In this document: positions 9,919-37,122 of the stretch, one piece after another
Numbering within the stretch: the first letter of the stretch is position 1
Layout of the letters: each line of letters starts with the position of its first letter
Assembly: GCF_027594745.1 (NCBI RefSeq)
Contig: NZ_CP110854.1
Coordinates: forward strand, 1,052,241-1,116,240
Source: Saprospira grandis
GTDB taxonomy: Bacteria; Bacteroidota; Bacteroidia; Chitinophagales; Saprospiraceae
Direction: 5' to 3'
DNA length: 64,000 nucleotides
The notes under the pieces: generated by a model
The model's input: only the letters and a program-made list of their open reading frames with translations
What the model was told of the DNA's origin: nothing
Database searches by the model: none
Translations under genes and position numbers: made by a program

Positions 9919-10827
9919 CTATTGGCCAACTCCGCCAAAATCATCGTCAAAGGTATCTCCATTGCTGGACTCATCTTGCTGTTCAAACTCTTGGCAGACC
10001 TCTGGTTTTTCGGCCAGCAGCCAGATGTCAATTCCGGCGCCCATACTGGCCCGAGAAGCGGCAGAAGGCGACTGTCGGACCACATAAGCATTCATAGTAT
10101 CGATGATATTTGGGCCATAGCTCACCGTGCCCAAATAAAAAGCATTGCCCTTAATGATAAACTCGGCTTCTGAGAAGGTTTTGCAGCTCAGGTCGGGGAC
10201 CAATTTTTTGCCGCTATCTTTTCCTTTATAGAGCTCTAGGTCTACTTTATCGCCTTGTTTGAGCTGATAGGGTTGCTTGGGTCGGCGTTCTCCCTTACTG
10301 GGGTCGGCCTCCTTAAAGATCAGGGTTTTATCTTTGGTATAAGCGGCGGCCACCGTATTTTCTCCGCCTCCATCTACATACTTCAGTTGGCCAATTTTTA
10401 GGCCGAGCGCCTTAAATTTCTTCTCGACAAAATTGAGCGGGCGGCCAATAATCTCATTATAATAAATATTGACGGGGGGAGCGCTATTGGCGTTTACGGT
10501 CAGGTAGATGCTTCGGTTGGGCTTCACTCGGCTATTGGCCTCAGGCGATTGCTTGAGGATAATGCCAGGATTTCGTTTTGCGTTATAAATCGTATCGGTA
10601 ACCACCAGGCGGAGCTTTCGGCTTTTGAGTTGTCGCTCGGCATTTTTGACCGAAAGGCCTTTAATATCGGGTACTTCAATAGACTCATTATGGCGGGTAT
10701 AAGAGGGGAGAATGAGCCAAAAGAGCAGGACAAAGCTCAGCAGCGCAATGCCAATCATCATCCCCATATTCTTGAGGAAGAGCTTAGAGCTTAGAAAATA
10801 GTATAAAAACTTAAAAAAAGATTTCAT
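9919..10827 (-). CDS. PASTA domain-containing membrane protein
   Basis: N-terminal TM helix (MMIGIALLSFVLLFWLIL). PASTA-like segments IEVPDIKGLSVKNAERQL... Confidence 0.6.
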   Translation of the reverse strand: MKSFFKFLYYFLSSKLFLKNMGMMIGIALLSFVLLFWLILPSYTRHNESIEVPDIKGLSVKNAERQLKSRKLRLVVTDTIYNAKRNPGIILKQSPEANSRVKPNRSIYLTVNANSAPPVNIYYNEIIGRPLNFVEKKFKALGLKIGQLKYVDGGGENTVAAAYTKDKTLIFKEADPSKGERRPKQPYQLKQGDKVDLELYKGKDSGKKLVPDLSCKTFSEAEFIIKGNAFYLGTVSYGPNIIDTMNAYVVRQSPSAASRASMGAGIDIWLLAEKPEVCQEFEQQDESSNGDTFDDDFGGVGQ

Positions 10828-19155: not shown

Positions 19156-20160
19156 ATGCACACACATTATCACATTCGACTTTCACAGGATGGGCAACTT
19201 TGGGCAGAATTTTCATTGCCCGAGGAGGCGGAGGCTAGTCTTTTGCTCAACTCATTAGAAACGATCTTGGACCTTTATCGGGAAGAGGACATTCATTTTT
19301 TGTTTAATGAGCGAAAAATCACGGCGGGGCCTGCGCAAAGAGAGCAGGAGCAATCCATTTTAGAATTGAGTCTAGCAGAACTTTGGGGAGATTTGGATGA
19401 GGCCTTATTGGTTTTGAACGGGCAAATTTGGAAGCTCTACCTTTTGGACAGGGCCTTAGAAGGGCCTGCCGAGCCGCAGCTTTTGGAGTTAGGGCCACAA
19501 CTGCAGGAAGTTTGGCAGGAGCCTGCTTCTTTATTGGAAGAATTGACTAATATGTTGGAAATGGCGCCTTTGCCATTGGAGGAAGAGGAAGACGACAACC
19601 CTTATACCGTTCAGGAATTGGCTCTTTTTCAGACCCAGATGGAATTTAAGAAAATCCAGTTTCGTCAGTACAAAGCCTTGGGCGAAAGAGCCATGCAGCA
19701 GCTGCCCGAGGCCGAGTTATTTCGGCAATTTTCTGCTGATCAAAACAGCATAGCCATTATTGTGCAGCATCTTTGGGGCAACATGCGTTCTCGTTGGACC
19801 GACTTTTTGAACACGGATGGCGAGAAAGACTGGCGAAACAGAGACAATGAATTTGAGCTATACCTCAAGGACCGTAAAGCGGTGATGGACTATTGGGAAG
19901 AGGGCTGGTTATTTCTTTTCAATGCGCTAGACCAATTGGAGGCCAAAGACTGGGACCGCAACATCTACATTCGGGGCGAGGAGCATTATGTTTGGCAGGC
20001 GATCGATCGGCAACTGGCTCATTATAGTTATCATATTGGCCAGATTGTACTTTTTGCTCGCATCTTTAAACAAGATCCTTGGGAAAGTCTTTCTATTCCC
20101 AGAGGCAAATCGGCGGAATACAACCAAATGATGCGAGAGGAAAACGAAAGAGAAGACTAG
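19156..20160 (+). CDS. hypothetical protein with a C-terminal DinB/YfiT-like (DUF1572-like) four-helix domain and an acidic N-terminal extension
   Basis: C-terminal half reads QNSIAIIVQHLWGNMRSRWTDFL...WRNRDNEFE...HYSYHIGQIVLFARIFK. Confidence 0.45.
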   Translation: MHTHYHIRLSQDGQLWAEFSLPEEAEASLLLNSLETILDLYREEDIHFLFNERKITAGPAQREQEQSILELSLAELWGDLDEALLVLNGQIWKLYLLDRALEGPAEPQLLELGPQLQEVWQEPASLLEELTNMLEMAPLPLEEEEDDNPYTVQELALFQTQMEFKKIQFRQYKALGERAMQQLPEAELFRQFSADQNSIAIIVQHLWGNMRSRWTDFLNTDGEKDWRNRDNEFELYLKDRKAVMDYWEEGWLFLFNALDQLEAKDWDRNIYIRGEEHYVWQAIDRQLAHYSYHIGQIVLFARIFKQDPWESLSIPRGKSAEYNQMMREENERED

Positions 20161-20164
20161 CGTT

Positions 20165-20217
20165 TGGGCGGGCTTATTCTGAGGAAGAAAAGGCCCGCTT
20201 TGCTATGATTTTTTTTG
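20165..20217 (+). terminator. intrinsic terminator
   Basis: gggcgggc...gcccgc stem followed by tttgctatgatttttttt. Confidence 0.5.
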
Positions 20218-20359
20218 AAAAAGCTGGATATTGAGCAGTTGTAAATGAAACTAGGCTGGAGGTGGAGACTTGAGCCTAGGCCATTTTAATTAAAATGAGT
20301 GCAGTAGTTCTCTATAAATGATAAATAAAGCCTCTCTTTTACCGTAAAAAGACAGCGAA

Positions 20360-21988
20360 ATGATCGATCTGCTGAATAAACTATTGTCGCTTACTACCGA
20401 AAATGAAGTAGTAGAATTTAAGGAAGCAAGAAGGCAGTATGATAAAAACAAACTGGGAAAATACTTCTCTGCCCTAAGTAACGAAGCCAACCTAAGTGGC
20501 AAGTCTCAGGCCTGGTTAGTCTTTGGTGTAAAGAACGATAAAACTGTTATTGGTACAATAATAAACGATCATCAAATCAATGATTATAAAGCAGAAATAG
20601 CGAACCACAGTAGCCCCAATCTATCCTTTGTAAATGTACATCGGGTAAATTACCAGGGACGAGATGTTTTAATGTTTGAAATTCCTGCTGCCCCAGAAGG
20701 TACCCCAGTTTCATGGAAGGGCTTTTGGTATGGAAGAGATGGAGAAAGTTTGGGCGCTTTAAATTTAAATGAGCTGGAAAATATTCGGAATCAAAACAAA
20801 AGTTATGATTGGTCTGCCCAGATTATTGAGCAAGCGACTTTAGATGATTTGGATCCGGCAGCAATTAAGAAGGCGAGGGAAATGTTTGCGATAAAAAACC
20901 CTAAACTAAAAGAACAGATACCGACTTGGAGTGATCGCACTTTTTTAAATAAAGCCAAACTTACGATTAAAGGTCAATTAACCCATGCCGCTATTTTATT
21001 ATTGGCTAAGCCGGAGTCGGAGCACTTCATTTCTCCTGCAACAGCTAAGATATCATGGATATTAAAAGACAAAGATAATTTAGAAAAGGACTACCAACAC
21101 TTTTCTTGTCCACTCTTATTAGAAGTAGAGAACGTAAAGTCAAAGATTCGGAACTTAAAATACCGTTACATAAAAGACGGTTCCTTATTCCCTGATGAAG
21201 TTGATCAATACGACCCTTATATTATAAGAGAGGCATTAAATAATTGTATTGCGCATCAGGACTACAGCTTAGGTGGAAAAATAAACATTGTAGAAAATGA
21301 GGCAGGTGAACTCATATTCTCTAATATGGGATCATTTATTCCTGTTTCTGTAGAACAAGTAATTAAGGCAGATGCCCCTGAATCTAGATATCGCAATTCC
21401 TTTTTAGCTAATGCCATGGTTAATCTAAATATGATTGACACCATTGGTAGCGGTATTAAGCGAATGTTTGTCATTCAGAAAAACAAATACTTTCCCTTGC
21501 CTGACTATGATCTTAGCAACAATCAGGTGAAGGTAAAAATTACGGCTAAGGTGCTTGATATAAAATATGCGCGAAAAATTGCCCAGCTCCCCGAACTATC
21601 ATTAGAGGAAATTATTCTGCTAGATAAGGTAGCCAAGCAAAAACTATTAACGGATGAGGAAATTAAATCGTTAAAAGCCAAGAAACTAATCGAGGGAAGA
21701 AAGCCCAACTTTCATATTTCCTCAGAAGTAGCTAAAGCATCGGGAGATAAAGCAAGGTATATAAAGCAGAGAGGGATTGACGATAAGTTTTATGAACAAT
21801 TAATTATTCAATATTTGAATAAATTTCAAGCAGCTAGTAGCGCTGACCTTAAAAAACTACTACTCGATAAATTACCTGAAATTTTAGCTCCCAAACAGAA
21901 AGAAAATAAAATCAGAAATATGTTGCAAAAGATGAAGCGCAACTCACTAATAAAGCTAAATGAAAACCGAGAATGGCAACTCGTTTAA
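20360..21988 (+). CDS. AlbA_2 (Schlafen-like putative DNA-binding) + HATPase_c_4-like C-terminal domain protein, often annotated ATP-binding protein or transcriptional regulator
   Basis: N-terminus MIDLLNKLLSLTTENEVVEFKEARRQYDKN...FSALSNEANLSG. C-terminal GSGIKRM motif. Lies in a low-GC stretch. Confidence 0.6.
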   Translation: MIDLLNKLLSLTTENEVVEFKEARRQYDKNKLGKYFSALSNEANLSGKSQAWLVFGVKNDKTVIGTIINDHQINDYKAEIANHSSPNLSFVNVHRVNYQGRDVLMFEIPAAPEGTPVSWKGFWYGRDGESLGALNLNELENIRNQNKSYDWSAQIIEQATLDDLDPAAIKKAREMFAIKNPKLKEQIPTWSDRTFLNKAKLTIKGQLTHAAILLLAKPESEHFISPATAKISWILKDKDNLEKDYQHFSCPLLLEVENVKSKIRNLKYRYIKDGSLFPDEVDQYDPYIIREALNNCIAHQDYSLGGKINIVENEAGELIFSNMGSFIPVSVEQVIKADAPESRYRNSFLANAMVNLNMIDTIGSGIKRMFVIQKNKYFPLPDYDLSNNQVKVKITAKVLDIKYARKIAQLPELSLEEIILLDKVAKQKLLTDEEIKSLKAKKLIEGRKPNFHISSEVAKASGDKARYIKQRGIDDKFYEQLIIQYLNKFQAASSADLKKLLLDKLPEILAPKQKENKIRNMLQKMKRNSLIKLNENREWQLV

Positions 21989-22075
21989 TTTAAACGGGAT
22001 TTAAACGGGATTTAAACGGGATTTAAACGGGATTTAAACGGGATTTAAACGGGATTTAAACGGGATTTAAACGGG
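21988..22075 (+). repeat. perfect tandem direct repeat, 8 x 11 bp (ATTTAAACGGG)
   Basis: Counted directly. It begins at the last base of the preceding stop codon and is followed by about 240 bp of AT-rich DNA. Confidence 0.95.
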
Positions 22076-26780: not shown

Positions 26781-27914
26781 CTACTCTAGCTTTTCTAAGC
26801 CCCCAAATTCTGCCTGCCCCTGGGCCAACATGGCTTTGCGAGCCGATAATTCTACTTTCTCCGATTTTTGCAAACAAGAGAAGTCCGCCGCCAAAATAGC
26901 TTGGAGCTCCGCCAAAACTTCTTCCCGACTCAACCAGTAGTGCTCCGTCAAAAAGATGTCGTCCAATAGCTTTTGCTTAAAGGGATCTAAGGCTTGATCT
27001 AAATTCAAATCGCTCTGATAAAGCGCATCCAGCCGCTCAAAAAGGGCCAAATGCTGCCCCCGACCCAATAGGCTGTATTCCCGATTTTCTTCCAACAAAG
27101 CTATGCTCCAACTCCCCAGAGAATAACCCAAACTATCCAAAGGATAGGCCGCATAAAAAAGCTCCACCAATTGATCATCTAAGCTGTCTGCCGTCTGCTC
27201 GGCCAACTTCCCCCAATATCTATAATCTCGATACAGCTGATATTCGGTTTTTGGGGCTGGCAAATAGACCAAATAACCGGGCAGTACATGCTGCAACCAA
27301 AAGAAATTGGCCAAACTATCTGCCGAACTTAAGGCCAAGGCCGCATTCACTCGCTCCTCCAAGGCCAATTCTAGGTTTTCGCCCTTTTTATACAACATCC
27401 GAAAAGCGGGTAAACTCTGAATCTCTGCCGCTTCTCGCTGATATTGCTTGACCTCCGCAGCCAACTCATCGCCAAAAAAGAAGTATAAACGCCGATCTAA
27501 CCAAAGCCGCTGCAAATCCTCCGAGGGCAGGCTGTCAAAGCTCAAACTCCCCCCAAATAACCAGCCCTTATAGCCATCCGCCGCCTCTACTTCTAGCCAG
27601 GGCTCCCTATGGTCCACCCCCTCCAAACGGATCAAACTTTCGGCCTTGCTCATCCGCCCCAAATACCGAAAACTACTGCCTTTGTGGTAGCTCCGCAAAC
27701 TTTTTGCCCCCCAATCTGGCGCCGCTTTCAACTCCCCTTCCCGGCTGCTTAGGCTCAGGCTGGCTCCTTGCCCATCCGTTGATATATACAGGCTGCTGTC
27801 TGCGGTTTTGGGCGCTTTTTCTGGCCCTTCTACCAGCGGTTTTTGGGCTTGCTCTTCGGCACAAGAAAATAACAAAAAACAGATAATCAAGGATATAGCA
27901 AAATGTATTTTCAT
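26781..27914 (-). CDS. hypothetical lipoprotein
   Basis: MKIHFAISLIICFLLFSCAEEQ lipobox. The ORF-track N-terminus lies in a repeat, so ATG at 27914 was chosen. Confidence 0.55.
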   Translation of the reverse strand: MKIHFAISLIICFLLFSCAEEQAQKPLVEGPEKAPKTADSSLYISTDGQGASLSLSSREGELKAAPDWGAKSLRSYHKGSSFRYLGRMSKAESLIRLEGVDHREPWLEVEAADGYKGWLFGGSLSFDSLPSEDLQRLWLDRRLYFFFGDELAAEVKQYQREAAEIQSLPAFRMLYKKGENLELALEERVNAALALSSADSLANFFWLQHVLPGYLVYLPAPKTEYQLYRDYRYWGKLAEQTADSLDDQLVELFYAAYPLDSLGYSLGSWSIALLEENREYSLLGRGQHLALFERLDALYQSDLNLDQALDPFKQKLLDDIFLTEHYWLSREEVLAELQAILAADFSCLQKSEKVELSARKAMLAQGQAEFGGLEKLE

Positions 27915-27916
27915 CT

Positions 27917-28085
27917 TTTTTTTATTTTGGGGCTGCCCCGCCCTGCGGGCGGGTCGGGCTGTTTCGCAGCTCGCTATTCGCTCGGCCCTGCGCAAAATTT
28001 CGCTGCGCTCATTTTGCTGGGTCTGCGGCTTCGCCGCCCTGCTGTCCATCCCTCAGCCGAGGGCCAGCCGCCAAGCGCTTTAGCC
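27917..28085 (+). repeat. REP/MITE-like repeat, F orientation, ctattcgct variant (copy R8)
   Basis: ttttggggctgccccgccctgcgggcgggtcgggctgtttcgcagctcgctattcgctcggccctgcg. Confidence 0.8.
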
Positions 28086-28275: not shown

Positions 28276-30984
28276 CTAATCCTCCTGAGAAGAAGACAAC
28301 AAACTGCTTTGCGCTTGTCGCTCTTGGCCAAAAGTCAGAATCTGCCGAATAAAATCGAAGGGCTGATACCCATTGATGGCCGTTTGGTGGAAGATGCAGG
28401 TGGCAGGCGTCATGCCGGGCAAAGAATTGACCTCAATGACCAGGGTTTCGGCTCGACCATCGGCATAAATGCGGACAAAAGCATCGATTCGGGCATAGCC
28501 CGTAACCCCCAAAATGCGGGCCGCCTGCTCTAAATCGGCCTTAATTTGGGCCGCCAAGGGCGCATATTCAAGTTCGCCAACAGCCAGACGGGCAGGGGTG
28601 ATATTTTGTCCCTCTCCTGCCAAAAACTTCTCTTCCAGCGATAAAATCTCGCCAGAAGCCAAAGTTTCAGAAGGCTCAAAAACCTCATAGCGGATGCTTC
28701 CATCGGCCTCATGATGGCAAAGTAGGCCCACCGTCACCTCCAGAAAATGCAAGGCATCTTTTTGCTCCACCAACTGCTCCAAAAGGGCATATTGCTTTTT
28801 GGGAAACTCCTCTTTGGGCAAAATGGCTAGGCGCTCTTGGGCAATTTTTGGCAAAATATCCTCTTCACGGAAAAGGGCCGCCAAAAAGGCCTCCAATTCC
28901 GCCTCATTTTTGATCTTTTTCACGGCAGAGCTACAGCCATCATCTACTGGCTTGGCAATCAGGGGCCAGCCTAGTTTTTCGCCTGCTTGCTGCAGACTTT
29001 GTTCAGGCTGGGCCAAATAATCGCTTTTGCTCAAAAGGATTTGCTCGGTCACGGGCAGGCCAGCAGCTTTCAGCTTTTGGAGACTCTGATACTTATCAAT
29101 CGTCAAAGCGGCAGAATCGGCCTCCGAACCATTAAAGGCGATGCCTCTCTTGGCCAACTCTCTTTGGAGCGCGCCATCCTCTCCGGGGCGGCCATGCAAA
29201 GCGATAAAGGCCAAGCGGGTCTCCTCGCTTAGTTCATCAAAAGAAAGCGGGCGGGGATCTAGGCGGCTGCTTCGGCCAGAAAACTGATTAGCAATATGAG
29301 CCGTTTCTTGGCGAATCTTTTGGATAATAGGATGTACCTTATAATTTAATAATTTATCGCGAATATCGTCGGCATTATCCTTTAGCAAAAGGTTGATGGG
29401 TAGCTCATAGAGCTGTTGGTCCTCGGCCTTACCCGTCAGGAAAACGGGAAAAGGCAGATAATCAGCAGAGCTGGCCAACTTCTCATAAATATTGCGGCCA
29501 CTTTCTACCGAAATATGGCGTTCGGAAGAATAACCGCCCAGAATAACCGCCACCTTTTGGAGTTCGGCAACCTCTCCTTCTAGGCGTTGCATCTCGCTTT
29601 CCAATCGGGCCAATAATTGGCCGTAATTATTGGGGCGCAAGCATTTTCGGCTGCGGGCCAAAAGCGAGCGATGAATAATAAAACTGAGAAAATGCGAGGG
29701 ATTAAGGCCAATTTCGGCCGCTTGATGGAAAAAGAAAGAAGAAGGCAGCATGCCCGAAGTCGTATTCGGGTCATTGAGAATAATGCGGCCATCGGCTTGA
29801 ATAAAGCCATCAATTCGGGCATAAACATCAAACTCCAAAAAGCGAAACAGCCGTTCGCACTCTTGGCGGATCGCTTGGATTTGGGCCTCAGGCAAATCAA
29901 TAGGCGTCAGTTTGCGAGAGAGTCCAGCCAAATACTTAGACCGATAATCAAAAAGCTCTTTACCCTTAATAATTTCTGTGGGGGGCAAAGCAATGGCTTG
30001 GCCATCCTCATCTTGAATCACGACACAGGAAAACTCTCGGCCCTCAATAAAGCCCTCTAACAAAACGCTTTCCTCTCGGTATTGGCTTTGGAGTCGGAGC
30101 TTGGGGCTATGTCCCTGCCCCAATTCCTTATCGAGTAGGGCCAATAATTGCTCGGGATGATAGAGCAACTGTTTATCTTTTTTGGGGCCTTCCACCTCTA
30201 GCGGAAAGCCGAGACCAGATCGAATATCGAGCAATTTCCGCATCCATTGAATCTGCTCCTCTCGGCTCATTTGCTGCCAGTCCTCAGCGCTAATTTCCAG
30301 GCCAAAAAAGGCATTTTCTAGGGCATCGAGAAGGTCTTCAGCCTGCTCGACAATACGCACACCGATAGAAGAACCTTGATTGGAAGGGCGGACCACCAGC
30401 GGGAACCCCATCTCTTTTTTGAGCTGCTCCAGATTGGGCAATTCGCCGCTCCAGTCTTTGGCCCAAATTTGTTGGATGGGAGGACTTTCAAAGCCGCCTG
30501 CCTGCATCATTTTCTTCTGGAAACTTTTGTCCATACCCAGGCTACTCGCTCGGATGCCAGAGCCACTATAGGGAATCCCCAAAGCTTCTAACATCCCTTG
30601 AAGTTGGCCATCTTCGCCCCATTCGCCATGCAGGCTCAGAAAAGCAAAATCGATCAATTCGGGCAATTCGCTAAAGCTAATTGGGCGGCCAATTTGGGCC
30701 AGCAACTCCTTAGACGCCTGCTTAGAAAGGCCTAGACTTTCCACATAAATCTGAAACTGATGCGGGCTAGGCGGCAAAGCCTCTACAGGGGGGTAAAAAT
30801 CTCGGATACTTCCCTTGTAGAGATATTCCCAATCGAGCAGGCAGAGTTGGCCAAAACTATCCACAAAAATAGGGATGGGCCGAAAAAGTTGTTTATTTAA
30901 ATTATCGTAGACGGTCCGGCCACCGGCAAAGGCGATTTCGCGTTCTCGAGAGGGGCCAGCCAGAAATATTCCAATGTTCAACAT
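28276..30984 (-). CDS. tandem double D-alanine--D-alanine-ligase-like ATP-grasp protein (two complete Ddl-like N+C modules in one 902-aa polypeptide)
   Basis: Module 1: MLNIGIFLAGPSREREIAFAGG... to ...ARIDGFIQADGRIILNDPNTTSGM. Module 2: VAVILGGYSSERHISVESG... to ...ARIDAFVRIYADGRAETLVIEVNSLPGMT. Confidence 0.6.
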   Translation of the reverse strand: MLNIGIFLAGPSREREIAFAGGRTVYDNLNKQLFRPIPIFVDSFGQLCLLDWEYLYKGSIRDFYPPVEALPPSPHQFQIYVESLGLSKQASKELLAQIGRPISFSELPELIDFAFLSLHGEWGEDGQLQGMLEALGIPYSGSGIRASSLGMDKSFQKKMMQAGGFESPPIQQIWAKDWSGELPNLEQLKKEMGFPLVVRPSNQGSSIGVRIVEQAEDLLDALENAFFGLEISAEDWQQMSREEQIQWMRKLLDIRSGLGFPLEVEGPKKDKQLLYHPEQLLALLDKELGQGHSPKLRLQSQYREESVLLEGFIEGREFSCVVIQDEDGQAIALPPTEIIKGKELFDYRSKYLAGLSRKLTPIDLPEAQIQAIRQECERLFRFLEFDVYARIDGFIQADGRIILNDPNTTSGMLPSSFFFHQAAEIGLNPSHFLSFIIHRSLLARSRKCLRPNNYGQLLARLESEMQRLEGEVAELQKVAVILGGYSSERHISVESGRNIYEKLASSADYLPFPVFLTGKAEDQQLYELPINLLLKDNADDIRDKLLNYKVHPIIQKIRQETAHIANQFSGRSSRLDPRPLSFDELSEETRLAFIALHGRPGEDGALQRELAKRGIAFNGSEADSAALTIDKYQSLQKLKAAGLPVTEQILLSKSDYLAQPEQSLQQAGEKLGWPLIAKPVDDGCSSAVKKIKNEAELEAFLAALFREEDILPKIAQERLAILPKEEFPKKQYALLEQLVEQKDALHFLEVTVGLLCHHEADGSIRYEVFEPSETLASGEILSLEEKFLAGEGQNITPARLAVGELEYAPLAAQIKADLEQAARILGVTGYARIDAFVRIYADGRAETLVIEVNSLPGMTPATCIFHQTAINGYQPFDFIRQILTFGQERQAQSSLLSSSQED

Positions 30985-31087
30985 AGGTGCAAGGCAGATT
31001 TATAATGATGGGCGCAAAGGTAGCAGATTTTTTAGAGAGTTGGGGTTTTAGCGAATAGAGAGTAAGCACAGGGGAGTATTTCGCCCT

Positions 31088-31122
31088 AAAATAAAAGGCC
31101 CCGACAAAATTGTCGAGGCCTA
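31088..31122 (-). terminator. intrinsic terminator for the Big_2 gene
   Basis: aggccccgacaaaattgtcgaggcct hairpin. The plus-strand A-run becomes a U-run on the minus strand. Confidence 0.6.
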
Positions 31123-35589: not shown

Positions 35590-35758
35590 GGGCCGAAGAA
35601 AATGGCCAAAAGAGAAAAAGACCGTTGAGCGGCTTAGCGCTGCGGAGCGGGTGGCCCGAAGGGCCAGACCAAGGCGGCTTGCCGCCGCAGGGCCGAGCAG
35701 ACCTGCGAGCCCCGCAGCATAGCGCCCCGCCGCCTGCGGCGGCGGGGAAGCCCCAAAT
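35590..35758 (-). repeat. REP/MITE-like repeat, R orientation (copy R11). Forms an inverted pair with R10.
   Basis: gggccgagcagacctgcgagccccgcagcatagcgcc...gaagccccaaattag. Confidence 0.8.
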
Positions 35759-37122
35759 TAGTCCCTATTAAAAGGAAGCAACCAACTGGGACTACTAAAA
35801 AGATCAGCTTTTTCTTGGGCCAAATTGACCTGAGGATCTACCAAGCGCTGGCTAGGGCGGCCATTGAGGCTAACCTGAGCGTCTAGATAAACCTCTGGGT
35901 TTTGATAGCCTTCTTCTGTTTGGTAATAATTGGCCAAATAATGGGCAAACTGCAAAAGCATATCAGGTTGATAGGCCATCATCAGCTCCTGTTTTTCATT
36001 GAGATGGTCCAGATTATTGACCCAGCTCATTTTGCCCGTTTGGCCATCGACTACCTTAAATTGGGCGTAGCCCCTTTTCTCGACCAGCATGACCATCCAA
36101 GAAAAGCGGAAGCCCTGTTCCTGCCAAAGGACATTACCTGCATAGAGATGATGTCGCAGCGGAAAAAGCGCCTGAAAAAGCAGAAAAGACAGCAAAAAAT
36201 AGCGTTGAAAAGGGGGAAGAACGAGCTCTAGTTTTAATTTAGACAAAGTCAAATTAAAATTTTTAGCAAAGGTAGTAATTATTTTTTCATGAAAACGGCT
36301 AGAGAAAAAAATTGTCGTGCAGGCCATCATCAGGTAGGGAAAAATGCCGATATAGAAGAGGGCGGCGGTGGCTAGGTGGAAGCAAATGACAAAAAAGTAG
36401 GCATATTTTCGGCTTTTGGACCAAAGGAGAAAAAAGCCAATACTGAGATCGAAGGCGGCGCCAAAATAGGCAAAAATGGGGGGCAGCCAGCTCTTGCAGA
36501 GGAGAGGGCCAAAGATTGGAAAATCGGATAGTTGGCCCAGCCAGATGCGCAGAGGTTGGGCTAAAACGAGCCAATCGCTTTGCAACTTGGCCAAGCCGGC
36601 AAAAAAATAGACCAGCACAAAAAGCAGTCGGGGCGTCCAGATATATAGAGCGGGAACCTTGACCAAAGCCACCGAGATCGGATAATCTAGAGAAAAGGCG
36701 CGATGAGCGGGCAGGATCCAAAGCAGCAGGGCCAGCAAAGCGACCAGGTAGTAATGATTGAGATAATGCGTCAGGTCCAAAAGCTCTACATAAGTAAAGC
36801 AAGCAAAAAAAGTCCCGGCAGAAAGTTTATATTTATAGCCTAGGGCGATACCAAGGCCCGCGGCGGCCATCAAAAAAAAGCAGGCATAAAGGGCTGTTGC
36901 GGGCAATTCGGGCAGCCAATGCGTACCCCAAAGGCGGAAGGCAAACTGGGGTTGGATATAGAACTTATCGACCCAGCCGAGCAGCAGCATCCGGAGAGAG
37001 AGCCAGCAAGCGATCAGGCCAAAAATGATTCTGAGGCTAATGAGGGGGGCGATACTTTTGGGTTGGTCTAAAGCGAGCATAAGGATGAATTTTATGGGCG
37101 CAAAGGTAGACAATAGGAGCAA
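35758..37122 (-). CDS. HTTM (vitamin K-dependent gamma-carboxylase-like) domain integral membrane protein
   Basis: N-terminal ...LRIIFGLIACWLSLRML...YIQPQFAFRLWG...ELLDLTHYLNHYYLVALLALLL...FSLD matches HTTM signature positions. Multi-pass TM. Confidence 0.6.
   Translation of the reverse strand: MLLLSTFAPIKFILMLALDQPKSIAPLISLRIIFGLIACWLSLRMLLLGWVDKFYIQPQFAFRLWGTHWLPELPATALYACFFLMAAAGLGIALGYKYKLSAGTFFACFTYVELLDLTHYLNHYYLVALLALLLWILPAHRAFSLDYPISVALVKVPALYIWTPRLLFVLVYFFAGLAKLQSDWLVLAQPLRIWLGQLSDFPIFGPLLCKSWLPPIFAYFGAAFDLSIGFFLLWSKSRKYAYFFVICFHLATAALFYIGIFPYLMMACTTIFFSSRFHEKIITTFAKNFNLTLSKLKLELVLPPFQRYFLLSFLLFQALFPLRHHLYAGNVLWQEQGFRFSWMVMLVEKRGYAQFKVVDGQTGKMSWVNNLDHLNEKQELMMAYQPDMLLQFAHYLANYYQTEEGYQNPEVYLDAQVSLNGRPSQRLVDPQVNLAQEKADLFSSPSWLLPFNRD

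What the first reader, a model, noticed from the sequence alone, without database searches (positions are those of the whole stretch)
28276..30984. 902-aa protein made of two complete D-Ala-D-Ala ligase-like (ATP-grasp) modules in tandem
Both halves contain an N-terminal Ddl domain (…GG.S.E...S..SG…) and a C-terminal ATP-grasp domain, with the conserved catalytic C-terminal block (ARIDGF…LNDPNTTSGM and ARIDAF…IEVNSLPGMT). Canonical Ddl is about 300-360 aa and acts as a homodimer. A covalently fused pseudo-dimer with divergent halves could make an asymmetric, hetero-specific ligase, for example a D-Ala-D-X or other dipeptide ligase, rather than housekeeping Ddl.
Basis: partly seen in the sequence, partly recalled or inferred. 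Interest (0 to 1): 0.55.

Follow-up and report, generated by a model that had tools for sequence, protein, structure and literature searches.

The report
Two-module D-Ala-D-Ala ligase with unequal halves
This Saprospira gene encodes a cell-wall D-alanine–D-alanine ligase built from two old, differently specialised ligase modules joined in one chain; the same design occurs in hundreds of bacterial species and is reported for plant chloroplast DDL, but nobody has explained why two modules are needed.

Summary
ORF 28276..30984 (−) encodes a 902-aa protein with two complete Ddl modules, each with a Ddl N-domain and an ATP-grasp C-domain. It is not a recent or decaying duplication. Full-length relatives occur in at least 571 species-representative Bacteroidota genomes, in CPR/Peregrinibacteria (~800 aa) and in Dependentiae (~740 aa). 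All half-1s group together and all half-2s group together. Both halves keep the ATP, Mg2+ and catalytic residues and are equally constrained (28.4% invariant columns each). Each also has its own fixed signature. Half 1 keeps the Glu-Ser-Tyr triad but has Asp for Glu270. Half 2 has Cys for Ser150 and Phe for Tyr216. Relatives tie the family to the peptidoglycan D-Ala branch: a tandem-Ddl–MurF fusion, a neighbouring gene with MurF-like and alanine-racemase domains, and a split half-1 gene beside ftsZ. So this is most likely the lineage's housekeeping Ddl, not an accessory dipeptide ligase. Plant DDL is reported as the same two-module fusion, but I could not compare sequences. In 55 of 72 informative loci the gene is linked or fused to a membrane PASTA-repeat protein. 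Whether Saprospira has a second, canonical ddl is untested.

The parts
28276..30984 (-). Tandem Ddl gene, 902 aa plus stop codon
   Evidence: ORF list. Pfam and NCBIfam Ddl hits. 95% identical to a Saprospira sp. CCB-QB6 protein that NCBI names D-alanine--D-alanine ligase.
29644..30984 (-). Module 1 (aa 1-447). Ddl N-domain plus ATP-grasp domain with the canonical-type triad Glu14-Ser205-Tyr351. Arg199 stands for Lys144, Asp405 for Glu270, Ser410 for Pro275, Phe417 for Leu282 (DdlB numbering).
   Evidence: Alignment to E. coli DdlB. These residues are invariant in 118 homologs and conserved in the CPR and Dependentiae classes. Pfam hits for the half alone.
30670..30858 (-). Insert in the N-domain of module 1 (aa 43-105) relative to DdlB
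   Evidence: Alignment. 19% invariant columns. Modelled with pLDDT around 78-92.
30076..30306 (-). 77-aa insert in the central domain of module 1 (aa 227-303). It folds as a small alpha/beta subdomain. The ~800-aa and ~740-aa classes are too short to hold all the inserts.
   Evidence: Alignment. Secondary structure and pLDDT 83-94. Invariant residues W236, D253, I254, R255, G259, P261, P277. Length classes.
29902..29952 (-). Omega-loop of module 1, FDYRSKYLAGLSRKLTP, holding Lys350 and Tyr351 (equivalent to Lys215 and Tyr216)
   Evidence: Alignment. Residues 345-354 are a low-confidence segment of the model, as expected for a mobile lid.
29734..29820 (-). Catalytic block of module 1: ARIDGF (Arg390, Asp392) through LNDPNTTSGMLPSSF (Asp405, Asn407, Gly411, Ser416, Phe417)
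   Evidence: DPNTTSGM and PSSFFFHQ were specific enough to retrieve 571 confirmed relatives.
29563..29643 (-). Linker between the modules (aa 448-474), predicted helical. It is the least conserved part of the protein.
   Evidence: DSSP helices 429-447 and 454-474. No invariant columns, entropy 2.56 bits.
28279..29562 (-). Module 2 (aa 475-902). Ddl N-domain plus ATP-grasp domain with full ATP/Mg2+ ligands (Lys631, Lys678, Glu749, Lys786, Arg832, Asp834, Glu851, Asn853, Gly857). The triad is broken: Glu488-Cys684-Phe787. Thr862 stands for Ser281 and Cys863 for Leu282.
   Evidence: Its best PDB sequence match is 1IOW, the DdlB Y216F mutant.
28588..28647 (-). Omega-loop of module 2, ILSLEEKFLAGEGQNITPAR, almost entirely invariant in the family. 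It holds Lys786 and Phe787.
   Evidence: List of invariant columns. Residues 776-792 are low-confidence in the model.
28396..28494 (-). Catalytic block of module 2: ARIDAF (Arg832, Asp834) through IEVNSLPGMTPATC (Glu851, Asn853, Gly857, Thr862, Cys863)
31015..31022 (-). Bacteroidota-type -7 promoter element TACCTTTG (TAnnTTTG), about 31 nt upstream of the ATG. Inferred own promoter.
   Evidence: Sequence read and pattern match. The meaning of the consensus rests on established knowledge of Bacteroidota promoters. Not tested experimentally.
31096..31121 (-). Strong hairpin plus T-run that ends the upstream Big_2 gene. It marks the tandem ddl as a separate transcription unit.
   Evidence: Terminator scan: 11 pairs, 7 of them G-C. 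The upstream gene is a Big_2 protein.
9919..10827 (-). Unlinked homolog of the family's usual genetic partner: a 302-aa single-pass membrane protein with PASTA repeats (TM helix at about aa 20-49)
   Evidence: tblastn with partner proteins from other loci, up to 43% identity and 1e-65. Pfam PASTA 80.9 bits. Hydropathy. Linked or fused to tandem ddl in 55 of 72 informative loci.

Best explanation
This is the peptidoglycan-pathway D-alanine--D-alanine ligase of Saprospira. It is built as one polypeptide from two anciently diverged Ddl paralogues, and both are catalytically competent. Shown: each module has the full Ddl domain set and fold. Each keeps the residues that bind ATP and two Mg2+, that stabilise the acyl-phosphate and tetrahedral intermediates, and that hold the C-terminal carboxylate. 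The two modules are equally constrained, and the pairing is older than the split between the Bacteroidota, CPR and Dependentiae versions. Inferred: module 1 has the intact Glu-Ser-Tyr triad and acts as a conventional D-Ala-D-Ala synthetase. Module 2 lacks the triad (Cys for Ser150, Phe for Tyr216) and is a second active site with altered lid chemistry, so probably different kinetics or a more relaxed second-substrate choice. The two modules probably pack against each other as a fixed intramolecular pair, replacing the usual homodimer. The dipeptide is passed to MurF. In most relatives the enzyme is genetically coupled, and sometimes fused through a transmembrane helix, to an extracytoplasmic PASTA-repeat protein. 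That suggests membrane tethering, or control of D-Ala-D-Ala supply by the state of the wall. In this genome the PASTA gene is unlinked, about 18 kb away.
For: Architecture and fold. Catalytic residues: present in both halves and invariant in 118 homologs, and kept at 33-40% identity in the CPR and Dependentiae classes. Constraint: 28.4% invariant columns in each half, entropy 1.12 against 1.11 bits. Age of the pairing: half-1s and half-2s form separate groups across all classes, and half 1 against half 2 is only about 23-25% identical. A low-GC lineage appears to have split the gene yet kept both modules, found in the same sequencing run on contigs with trinucleotide r = 0.97. Pathway link: P0260 is tandem Ddl plus MurF (TIGR01143 319.7 bits, cut-off 288.6). 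The tandem ddl of P0253 lies beside an 834-aa gene with Mur-ligase and alanine-racemase Pfam domains. The split half-1 gene P0227 lies directly upstream of ftsZ. Distribution typical of a housekeeping gene: at least 571 species-representative genomes, exactly one Ddl-like ORF in each of 80 loci with 10-kb flanks, and retention in Dependentiae on 1.1-1.6 Mb contigs. The whole protein passes NCBIfam Ddl subfamily cut-offs and NCBI names it Ddl. [quoted passage not shown] PASTA coupling.
Against: No biochemical data exist for any bacterial member. I could not search the whole Saprospira genome, so a separate canonical ddl is not excluded, and in that case this protein might be accessory. Each half alone fails the curated Ddl cut-offs. 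Module 2 departs from Ddl at exactly the residues whose mutation changes product specificity in DdlB (from memory: Park, Lin & Walsh 1996; Fan et al. 1997). In this window the gene has no peptidoglycan neighbours. The pathway evidence comes from relatives at 33-56% identity, not from this gene. The packing of the two modules was not verified, since only pTM 0.87 and no coordinates were available. Homology to plant DDL was not tested by sequence.
Confidence: 0.62

Rival explanations
1. Hetero-specific two-product ligase. Module 1 makes D-Ala-D-Ala. Module 2, lacking the triad, makes a different D-Ala-D-X product such as D-Ala-D-lactate, D-Ala-D-Ser or another D-amino or hydroxy acid. The cell would then produce two kinds of precursor termini or a second dipeptide for another use.
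For: Module 2 has Phe at the Tyr216 position and Cys at the Ser150 position, invariant in three phyla. Its best PDB sequence match is the DdlB Y216F mutant 1IOW. From memory (Park, Lin & Walsh 1996; Park & Walsh 1997; Healy et al. 1998): Y216F and S150A in DdlB gain D-Ala-D-lactate synthesis; Leuconostoc D-Ala-D-Lac ligase has Phe261 at this position; VanC2 specificity maps to Phe250 and Arg322, which correspond to Tyr216 and Leu282. Position 282 also differs between the modules: Phe in module 1, Cys/Val/Ala in module 2. Stand-alone half-2-type genes exist.
Against: Module 2 is not related to known D-Ala-D-Lac or D-Ala-D-Ser ligases beyond the general family: NF000206 72.8 bits against a cut-off of 550, VanG 87.9 against 495, 1EHI 24 bits. 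The immediate neighbours in this window are not vanH, vanX or vanT. DdlB Y216F still makes D-Ala-D-Ala (from memory), so Phe alone does not establish a new product. Retention of both modules in minimal CPR and Dependentiae genomes is easier to explain by one essential product.
Confidence: 0.22
2. One catalytic module plus one non-catalytic partner. Only one module turns over. The other serves as the obligatory 'second subunit' of a Ddl dimer, or as a regulatory nucleotide- or D-Ala-binding module.
For: Canonical Ddl is dimeric (established knowledge), and a fusion fixes the partner. Catalytically dead tandem-Ddl-TM-PASTA paralogues exist in the same clade, so the fold can be used non-catalytically. 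Each half alone scores below the Ddl cut-offs. PMC9954125 suggests that the C-terminal half of AtDDL alone might suffice in Arabidopsis mutants.
Against: Every ATP, Mg2+ and catalytic ligand is invariant in both modules across three phyla. Constraint is equal in both halves and strongest in both catalytic C-domains. The truly dead paralogues show what relaxation looks like, since most catalytic positions have changed, and this protein looks nothing like them.
Confidence: 0.1
3. Not a cell-wall enzyme: an ATP-grasp dipeptide ligase for a secondary metabolite or a storage or osmolyte peptide that only resembles Ddl.
For: No peptidoglycan genes flank it in this window. Both halves are diverged from canonical Ddl.
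Against: There is no biosynthetic cluster around it in the window or in 80 related loci, where the recurrent neighbours are a PASTA protein and a T9SS-tail protein. The distribution is near-universal and single-copy. Relatives show a MurF fusion, a neighbour with MurF-like and alanine-racemase domains, and an ftsZ neighbour. The D-Ala1 ligand Glu15 and the carboxylate-binding Ser/Thr281 are kept in both modules.
Confidence: 0.04

Closest known systems
Plant and moss plastid DDL (Arabidopsis At-DDL, Physcomitrella PpDDL BAE45860, rice OsDDL BAF22630)
   Same: One polypeptide made of two complete DDL modules (PMC9954125 main text and supplement Fig. S3). Similar size, from memory about 940 aa with the transit peptide. 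Linked to peptidoglycan D-Ala-D-Ala supply (PMC7432710). Moss Ddl is reported as closest to FCB-group bacterial homologs, the group that includes Bacteroidota (PMC9434261).
   Different: The plant protein is eukaryotic, nucleus-encoded and plastid-related. I could not obtain a plant sequence, so half-to-half orthology and the Cys150/Phe216 signature are untested. No plant-like protein appeared among the 150 best representatives, so the relationship is either distant or outside that library. No PASTA partner is known in plants.
Canonical single-module Ddl (E. coli DdlB, PDB 2DLN/1IOV; DdlA; Thermus Ddl)
   Same: Same domains, fold and catalytic residues. Module 1 keeps the Glu15-Ser150-Tyr216 triad.
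   Different: There are two modules in one chain, about 23-25% identical to each other. Inserts of 63, 77 and 30 aa are present. Module 1 has Asp for Glu270, Arg for Lys144 and Phe for Leu282. Module 2 has Cys150, Phe216 and Thr281. Each module alone falls below the curated family cut-offs.
DdlB Y216F mutant (PDB 1IOW) and Phe-type D-Ala-D-Lac or D-Ala-D-Ser ligases (Leuconostoc LmDdl2 1EHI, VanC/VanG)
   Same: Module 2 carries Phe at the Tyr216 position, and 1IOW is its top PDB sequence match.
   Different: Overall similarity to LmDdl2 and the Van ligases is low: 24-50 bits to the PDB chains (1EHI, VanA) and 50-88 bits on the NCBIfam Van models, whose cut-offs are 495-775. The immediate neighbours in the window are not vanH, vanX or vanT. 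Module 2 additionally has Cys for Ser150.
Other fused forms of Ddl: chlamydial MurC-Ddl (NF011171)
   Same: Ddl is fused to another enzyme module of the same pathway. JGI even mislabels several family members as MurC.
   Different: This protein has no Mur-ligase domain: 149.5 bits against a cut-off of 1015. The partner of Ddl here is a second Ddl. A tandem-Ddl-MurF fusion does exist among relatives (P0260).
PASTA-sensor membrane proteins (PknB/StkP kinases, PBP2x)
   Same: Fused relatives have a cytoplasmic catalytic part, a single TM helix and extracytoplasmic PASTA repeats.
   Different: The cytoplasmic part is a ligase, not a kinase. In this genome the PASTA protein is separate and unlinked. 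No ligand or signalling has been shown.

Membership tests
D-alanine--D-alanine ligase family (Pfam PF01820 + PF07478; EC 6.3.2.4) | Ddl N-terminal domain followed by an ATP-grasp (Ddl C) domain | tested here: met
   Present twice. Each half hits both models on its own, with E-values from 1.6e-17 to 6.8e-35.
D-alanine--D-alanine ligase family (Pfam PF01820 + PF07478; EC 6.3.2.4) | ATP, Mg2+ and catalytic residues (DdlB Lys97, Lys144, Glu187, Lys215, Arg255, Asp257, Glu270, Asn272, Gly276) | tested here: met
   All are present in both halves. Half 1 has conservative Lys144->Arg and Glu270->Asp. They are invariant in 118 homologs and conserved in distant classes. My recalled DdlB sequence agrees with the PDB alignment printed.
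D-alanine--D-alanine ligase family (Pfam PF01820 + PF07478; EC 6.3.2.4) | Glu15-Ser150-Tyr216 hydrogen-bond triad of D-Ala-D-Ala-specific enzymes | tested here: inconclusive
   Met in module 1 (Glu14, Ser205, Tyr351). Not met in module 2 (Glu488, Cys684, Phe787)..
D-alanine--D-alanine ligase family (Pfam PF01820 + PF07478; EC 6.3.2.4) | Score above the curated NCBIfam cut-offs (NF002378 243 bits, TIGR01205 245.65 bits) | tested here: inconclusive
   The whole protein scores 353.8 and 332.3 bits and passes. Half 1 alone scores 216 and 205.3, half 2 alone 145.2 and 133.5, and both fail.
D-alanine--D-alanine ligase family (Pfam PF01820 + PF07478; EC 6.3.2.4) | Three-domain Ddl fold | tested here: met
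   AF2 model with pLDDT 86.4. Foldseek to Ddl chains gives TMt 0.78-0.88 and E-values down to 3.5e-25. The hit table does not say which half aligned.
D-alanine--D-alanine ligase family (Pfam PF01820 + PF07478; EC 6.3.2.4) | [quoted passage not shown] | not testable with these tools
   Only indirect evidence from relatives: a MurF fusion, a neighbour with Mur-ligase and alanine-racemase domains, and an ftsZ neighbour.
Plant-type two-module DDL (AtDDL, PpDDL, OsDDL) | Two complete DDL modules in one polypeptide | tested here: met
   for this protein. PMC9954125 for the plant proteins.
Plant-type two-module DDL (AtDDL, PpDDL, OsDDL) | Half-to-half sequence orthology with the plant proteins (N module to N module, C module to C module) | not testable with these tools
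   No plant sequence could be obtained. AFDB50 was unavailable, the supplement figure is an image, and Hirano 2016, Machida 2006 and Sato & Takano 2017 are not held.
D-Ala-D-Lac / D-Ala-D-Ser ligases (VanA/B/D, LmDdl2, VanC/E/G) | Non-Tyr residue at the Tyr216-equivalent position (Phe in LmDdl2 and VanC types) | tested here: met
   Met for module 2 only: Phe787, invariant. The specificity rule itself is recalled from the literature.
D-Ala-D-Lac / D-Ala-D-Ser ligases (VanA/B/D, LmDdl2, VanC/E/G) | Score above the curated model cut-offs for these ligases | tested here: not met
   For module 2: NF000206 72.8 against 550, VanG 87.9 against 495, NF000207 79 against 520. PDB 1EHI 24 bits, VanA 48 bits.
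D-Ala-D-Lac / D-Ala-D-Ser ligases (VanA/B/D, LmDdl2, VanC/E/G) | Companion genes (vanH/vanX or vanT/vanXY) nearby | tested here: not met
   The window neighbours are Big_2, a TonB receptor, HTTM and proteins of unknown function. Recurrent neighbours in 80 loci are PASTA and Por_Secre_tail proteins. The flanks were not scanned exhaustively with Van models.
Bifunctional MurC-Ddl (NF011171) | Mur-ligase domains fused to Ddl; score of at least 1015 bits | tested here: not met
   149.5 bits and no Mur-ligase Pfam hit.
Enzyme-TM-PASTA sensor architecture | Transmembrane helix and PASTA repeats C-terminal to the catalytic part | tested here: not met
   This protein has no TM-like segment and no PASTA hit. 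The architecture is present in fused relatives. Here the PASTA protein is a separate gene at 9919..10827.

The most novel reading that the evidence does not exclude
The tandem Ddl is an obligately asymmetric two-site enzyme that predates the divergence of Bacteroidota, CPR and Dependentiae and is the direct ancestor type of plant DDL, meaning the fusion was acquired ready-made by the green lineage. Its triad-less module 2 (Cys150/Phe216) does chemistry that a canonical Ddl site does not, such as a different D-Ala-D-X product or a differently regulated D-Ala-D-Ala site. Through its PASTA partner, the enzyme's output is tuned to the state of the wall outside the membrane.
Probability: 0.15. Interest if true: 0.75.

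Novelty: new variant of a known kind. Interest (0 to 1): 0.5.

Why it matters
Ddl is a textbook antibiotic target (D-cycloserine), and its product is what vancomycin binds. It is normally described as a homodimer of identical active sites. Here a large, old family fixes two non-identical active sites in one chain. It occurs in at least 571 Bacteroidota species-representative genomes and also in CPR and Dependentiae. One site carries, as its natural state, the changes that in E. coli DdlB loosen second-substrate specificity. Plant biologists have an open problem: why plant DDL is a double enzyme, whether both halves work, and where it came from (PMC9954125, PMC9434261). Cultivable bacteria such as Saprospira, Aureispira and Solirubrum that carry the same architecture would make these questions directly testable by expression, single-site mutants and complementation. 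The frequent linkage or fusion to a membrane PASTA protein also hints at an undescribed connection in Gram-negative bacteria between sensing of wall fragments and supply of the D-Ala-D-Ala precursor.

Tried and rejected
1. Foldseek against AFDB50, intended to retrieve plant DDL models, could not run because the library is not installed.
2. Plant DDL sequence from papers: the supplement of PMC9954125 shows it only as an image. Hirano 2016, Machida 2006 and Sato & Takano 2017 are not held. A full-text search for family peptide motifs found nothing relevant.
3. P0253 as a possible algal homolog, because of its Ala/Arg-rich N-terminal extension: rejected. Its contig is bacterial, with a neighbouring gene carrying Mur-ligase and alanine-racemase domains.
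4. My first reading of the neighbour clustering, that a second and degenerate Ddl sits downstream in 33 loci: rejected. The downstream ORFs are small PASTA proteins, joined to the Ddl cluster only through the fused forms.
5. Split halves as an adjacent two-gene operon: not found. The stand-alone half-2 genes have no half-1 neighbour. The halves appear to be unlinked in one low-GC lineage.
6. A whole-genome check for a separate canonical ddl in Saprospira was not possible, because only 10-kb flanks of public contigs can be read and the single genome-contig scan went to the family survey.
7. Literature searches for bacterial tandem Ddl or a Ddl-PASTA association found nothing. PMC4814524 does not treat the Tyr/Phe position.
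8. The geometry between the modules could not be examined, because structure prediction returns no coordinates or PAE.

Full report
**Observation.** The ORF at 28276..30984 on the minus strand exists exactly as described: ATG start, 902 aa. The whole protein hits Pfam Dala_Dala_lig_N and Dala_Dala_lig_C, in 2 and 4 stretches. When the halves are scanned separately, each hits both domains. Half 1 scores 6.8e-35 (C) and 2.1e-19 (N); half 2 scores 7.4e-21 and 1.6e-17. The quoted catalytic motifs sit at aa 389-394 and 403-412 in half 1 and at aa 831-836 and 850-859 in half 2. An AlphaFold2 model built on 66 homologs is confident, with pLDDT 86.4 and pTM 0.87. Its only poorly defined stretches are 345-354 and 776-792, where the mobile omega-loop lids of the two modules lie. 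Foldseek matches the model to solved Ddl chains with target-normalised TM-scores of 0.78-0.88. One qualification applies. Each half alone scores below NCBI's curated Ddl cut-offs of 243 and 245.65 bits: half 1 gets 216 and 205 bits, half 2 gets 145 and 134. The whole protein passes with 354 and 332 bits only by addition.

**Not a local oddity.** The closest relative, at 95% identity, is from Saprospira sp. CCB-QB6. More than 120 clusters of ~890-930-aa proteins at 55-64% identity come from Aureispira, Phaeodactylibacter and Saprospiraceae MAGs. The best 80 are Saprospiraceae, Lewinellaceae and Chitinophagales-type Bacteroidota, plus the isolate Solirubrum puertoriconensis. An exhaustive HMMER search of 1.84 billion representatives showed co-linear, full-length two-module proteins down to about 30% identity. 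These fall into further length classes. One class of ~800 aa is named mostly Candidatus Peregrinibacteria or Patescibacteria. A compact class of ~740 aa comes from Candidatus Dependentiae/Babeliales, several on contigs of 1.1-1.6 Mb.

**Both halves are alive, and they differ.** I aligned each half to E. coli DdlB. I recalled that sequence from memory, and it agrees with the PDB alignment printed. I then read the DdlB functional positions across 118 homologs. In both halves the ligands for ATP, the two Mg2+ ions and the reaction intermediates are invariant: Lys97, Lys144, Glu187, Lys215, Arg255, Asp257, Glu270, Asn272 and Gly276. Half 1 has the conservative changes Lys144->Arg and Glu270->Asp.
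- **Half 1** keeps the Glu15-Ser150-Tyr216 triad. It has Asp for Glu270, Ser for Pro275 and Phe for Leu282.
- **Half 2** has Cys for Ser150, Leu for Tyr210, Phe for Tyr216 and Thr for Ser281. Position 282 holds a small residue (Cys, Val or Ala).

The same two signatures recur in the CPR class at 33-36% identity and in the Dependentiae class. As an internal control, the best PDB sequence match of half 2 is 1IOW, the Y216F mutant of DdlB. Constraint is equal in the two halves: 28.4% invariant columns in each, and mean entropy of 1.12 against 1.11 bits. It is highest in the two catalytic C-domains and lowest in the linker. A bit-score matrix and a neighbour-joining tree put all half-1s together and all half-2s together, whatever the phylum. 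Half 1 against half 2 is only about 23-25% identical. The protein is therefore a pairing of two old paralogues, not a recent duplication.

**What relaxation looks like.** Most of the weakly similar (29-39% identity) ~1200-aa relatives, such as P0171, P0174-P0176, P0179, P0218 and P0257, have lost most catalytic residues in both halves. The P0257 cluster is named 'PASTA domain-containing protein [Phaeodactylibacter sp.]'. The protein in this window looks nothing like these.

**Both modules seem to be needed.** Stand-alone half-1-type proteins (P0224, P0227) and half-2-type proteins (P0240, P0247) exist. Both kinds nest next to the same tandem representative in the tree, which points to gene fission in one low-GC lineage. 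P0224 and P0240 come from the same sequencing run, on contigs with 31-32% GC and a trinucleotide correlation of 0.97. That is compatible with a single organism keeping both modules as unlinked genes. Two phyla with minimal genomes also retain a 740-800-aa double enzyme, which points the same way.

**Pathway assignment.** In this window the gene stands alone. Upstream is a Big_2 protein ending in a strong terminator (31121..31096). A Bacteroidota-type -7 box, TACCTTTG, lies at 31022..31015. Downstream is a protein with no Pfam hit. Relatives are more informative:
- P0260 is a tandem Ddl fused to MurF (TIGR01143 319.7 bits, cut-off 288.6).
- The tandem ddl of P0253 lies beside an 834-aa gene with Mur-ligase and alanine-racemase Pfam domains, and beside an MR_MLE-family (enolase superfamily) gene.
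- The split half-1 gene P0227 lies directly upstream of ftsZ.
- A split half-2 gene lies beside a Mur-ligase-family gene.
- The Dependentiae and Peregrinibacteria loci hold a Mur ligase, a Na+/alanine symporter, a phosphoglucomutase-family gene and a PBP within 10 kb.
- In all 80 Bacteroidota loci the tandem gene is the only Ddl-like ORF within 10 kb on each side.

Together with NCBI's own naming, this supports a role as the D-Ala-D-Ala supplier of peptidoglycan synthesis. It does not support an accessory dipeptide ligase.

**Comparison with what is known.** Plant DDL is the obvious counterpart. [quoted passage not shown] Moss Ddl is said to be closest to homologs from the Fibrobacteres-Chlorobi-Bacteroidetes group (PMC9434261). 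The same paper that describes the fusion says it is still open whether the C-terminal half alone, or even the whole AtDDL, is a functional ligase. I could not get a plant sequence, so orthology is an inference. No plant-like protein was among the 150 best representatives, so any relationship is not close.

Against the D-Ala-D-Lac and D-Ala-D-Ser ligases, module 2 shares the Phe at position 216 and little else. It scores 50-88 bits on models whose cut-offs are 495-775, and 24 bits to Leuconostoc LmDdl2. No van companion genes flank it. It is not a MurC-Ddl fusion.

**Mechanism.** Shown: there are two complete and equally conserved Ddl active sites in one chain, with fixed and different residues at the positions that close the lid over the second substrate. 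Inferred: module 1 behaves as a normal D-Ala-D-Ala synthetase. Module 2 is also catalytic, but it lacks the Ser-Tyr hydrogen-bond latch. From memory of the DdlB literature (Park, Lin & Walsh 1996; Fan et al. 1997; Healy et al. 1998), Y216F and S150A keep D-Ala-D-Ala synthesis and gain D-Ala-D-lactate synthesis, and position 282 contributes to D-Ser selection in VanC2. So altered kinetics or relaxed second-substrate choice in module 2 is plausible but unproven. I give 0.62 to 'housekeeping two-site Ddl', 0.22 to 'two different products', 0.10 to 'one catalytic module and one scaffold module', and 0.04 to 'not a cell-wall enzyme'. The high pTM suggests a fixed arrangement of the two modules. I could not check whether it copies the canonical homodimer.

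**A finding outside the brief.** In 55 of 72 loci with enough downstream sequence, the tandem ddl is followed by, or fused to, a small protein. That protein has one transmembrane helix, a conserved 'YT(R/K)HGES' motif and two or three PASTA repeats. The counts are 41 adjacent, 6 fused and 8 nearby, and 4 of the nearby ones actually overlap the ddl stop codon. The fused forms (1233-1285 aa) read as cytoplasmic tandem Ddl, a low-complexity linker, a TM helix and extracytoplasmic PASTA. That layout resembles PknB/StkP kinases. In this window the PASTA gene is present but unlinked, at 9919..10827 on the minus strand. I found no paper describing a Ddl-PASTA association.

**Verdict.** What is added here is the ancient and conserved asymmetry of the two active sites, the breadth of the family across three phyla, and the PASTA coupling. 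Main gaps: no whole-genome check for a second ddl, no plant sequence comparison, no coordinates, and no biochemistry.

Noticed in passing
window 9919..10827 (-); L006-L085 directly downstream of the tandem ddl; P0112, P0116, P0121, P0122, P0126: The tandem ddl is linked to, or fused through a TM helix with, a small PASTA-repeat membrane protein in 55 of 72 informative Bacteroidota loci. In this window the PASTA gene is present but about 18 kb away. I found no literature on a Ddl-PASTA association.
   Followed up: partly
P0171, P0174, P0175, P0176, P0179, P0218, P0257 (relatives, about 1190-1220 aa): These are paralogues with the layout tandem-Ddl, TM helix, PASTA, in which most catalytic residues of both Ddl modules are lost. 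They look like pseudo-enzymes. One cluster is named 'PASTA domain-containing protein [Phaeodactylibacter sp.]'.
   Followed up: partly
P0260 (1262 aa); P0228 (987 aa): Further fusions of the tandem Ddl. P0260 has a C-terminal MurF that passes TIGR01143. P0228 has an N-terminal GNAT acetyltransferase domain.
   Followed up: partly
L005:3204-5708 (-): An 834-aa gene with Mur-ligase and alanine-racemase Pfam domains (a likely MurF-alanine racemase fusion) lies convergent with a high-GC tandem ddl (P0253). It is followed by an MR_MLE-family (enolase superfamily) gene.
   Followed up: no
L004, L087 (run SRR23603175); L001-L003; L086: A low-GC lineage (26-32% GC) carries half-1-type and half-2-type Ddl as separate, unlinked genes. 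One half-1-type gene sits directly upstream of ftsZ.
   Followed up: partly
P0184, P0188, P0190, P0199, P0200, P0209 (604-634 aa): These proteins consist of an intact half-1-type module followed by what aligns to only the N-domain of half 2, with its key residues lost. They may be truncated or remodelled tandems. Not examined further.
   Followed up: no
L026, L044, L078, L079 (record titles): Contigs carrying a Saprospiraceae-type tandem ddl at 54-56% identity are titled as MAGs of Maribacter, Flavobacteriaceae, Synechococcus and Akkermansia. These are probably mis-binned or mislabelled records.
   Followed up: no
window 35758..37122 (-): A 454-aa protein with HTTM and vitamin-K-dependent gamma-carboxylase lumenal-domain hits (1.7e-67 and 6e-52), which is an unusual family to see in a bacterium.
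   Followed up: no
window 20001..22000: A local GC dip to 0.371, against about 0.45-0.51 elsewhere in the window. Not examined.
   Followed up: no
window 26781..28049 (-): The 422-aa ORF directly downstream of the tandem ddl has no Pfam hit. It is not the PASTA partner seen at this position in other genomes.
   Followed up: partly
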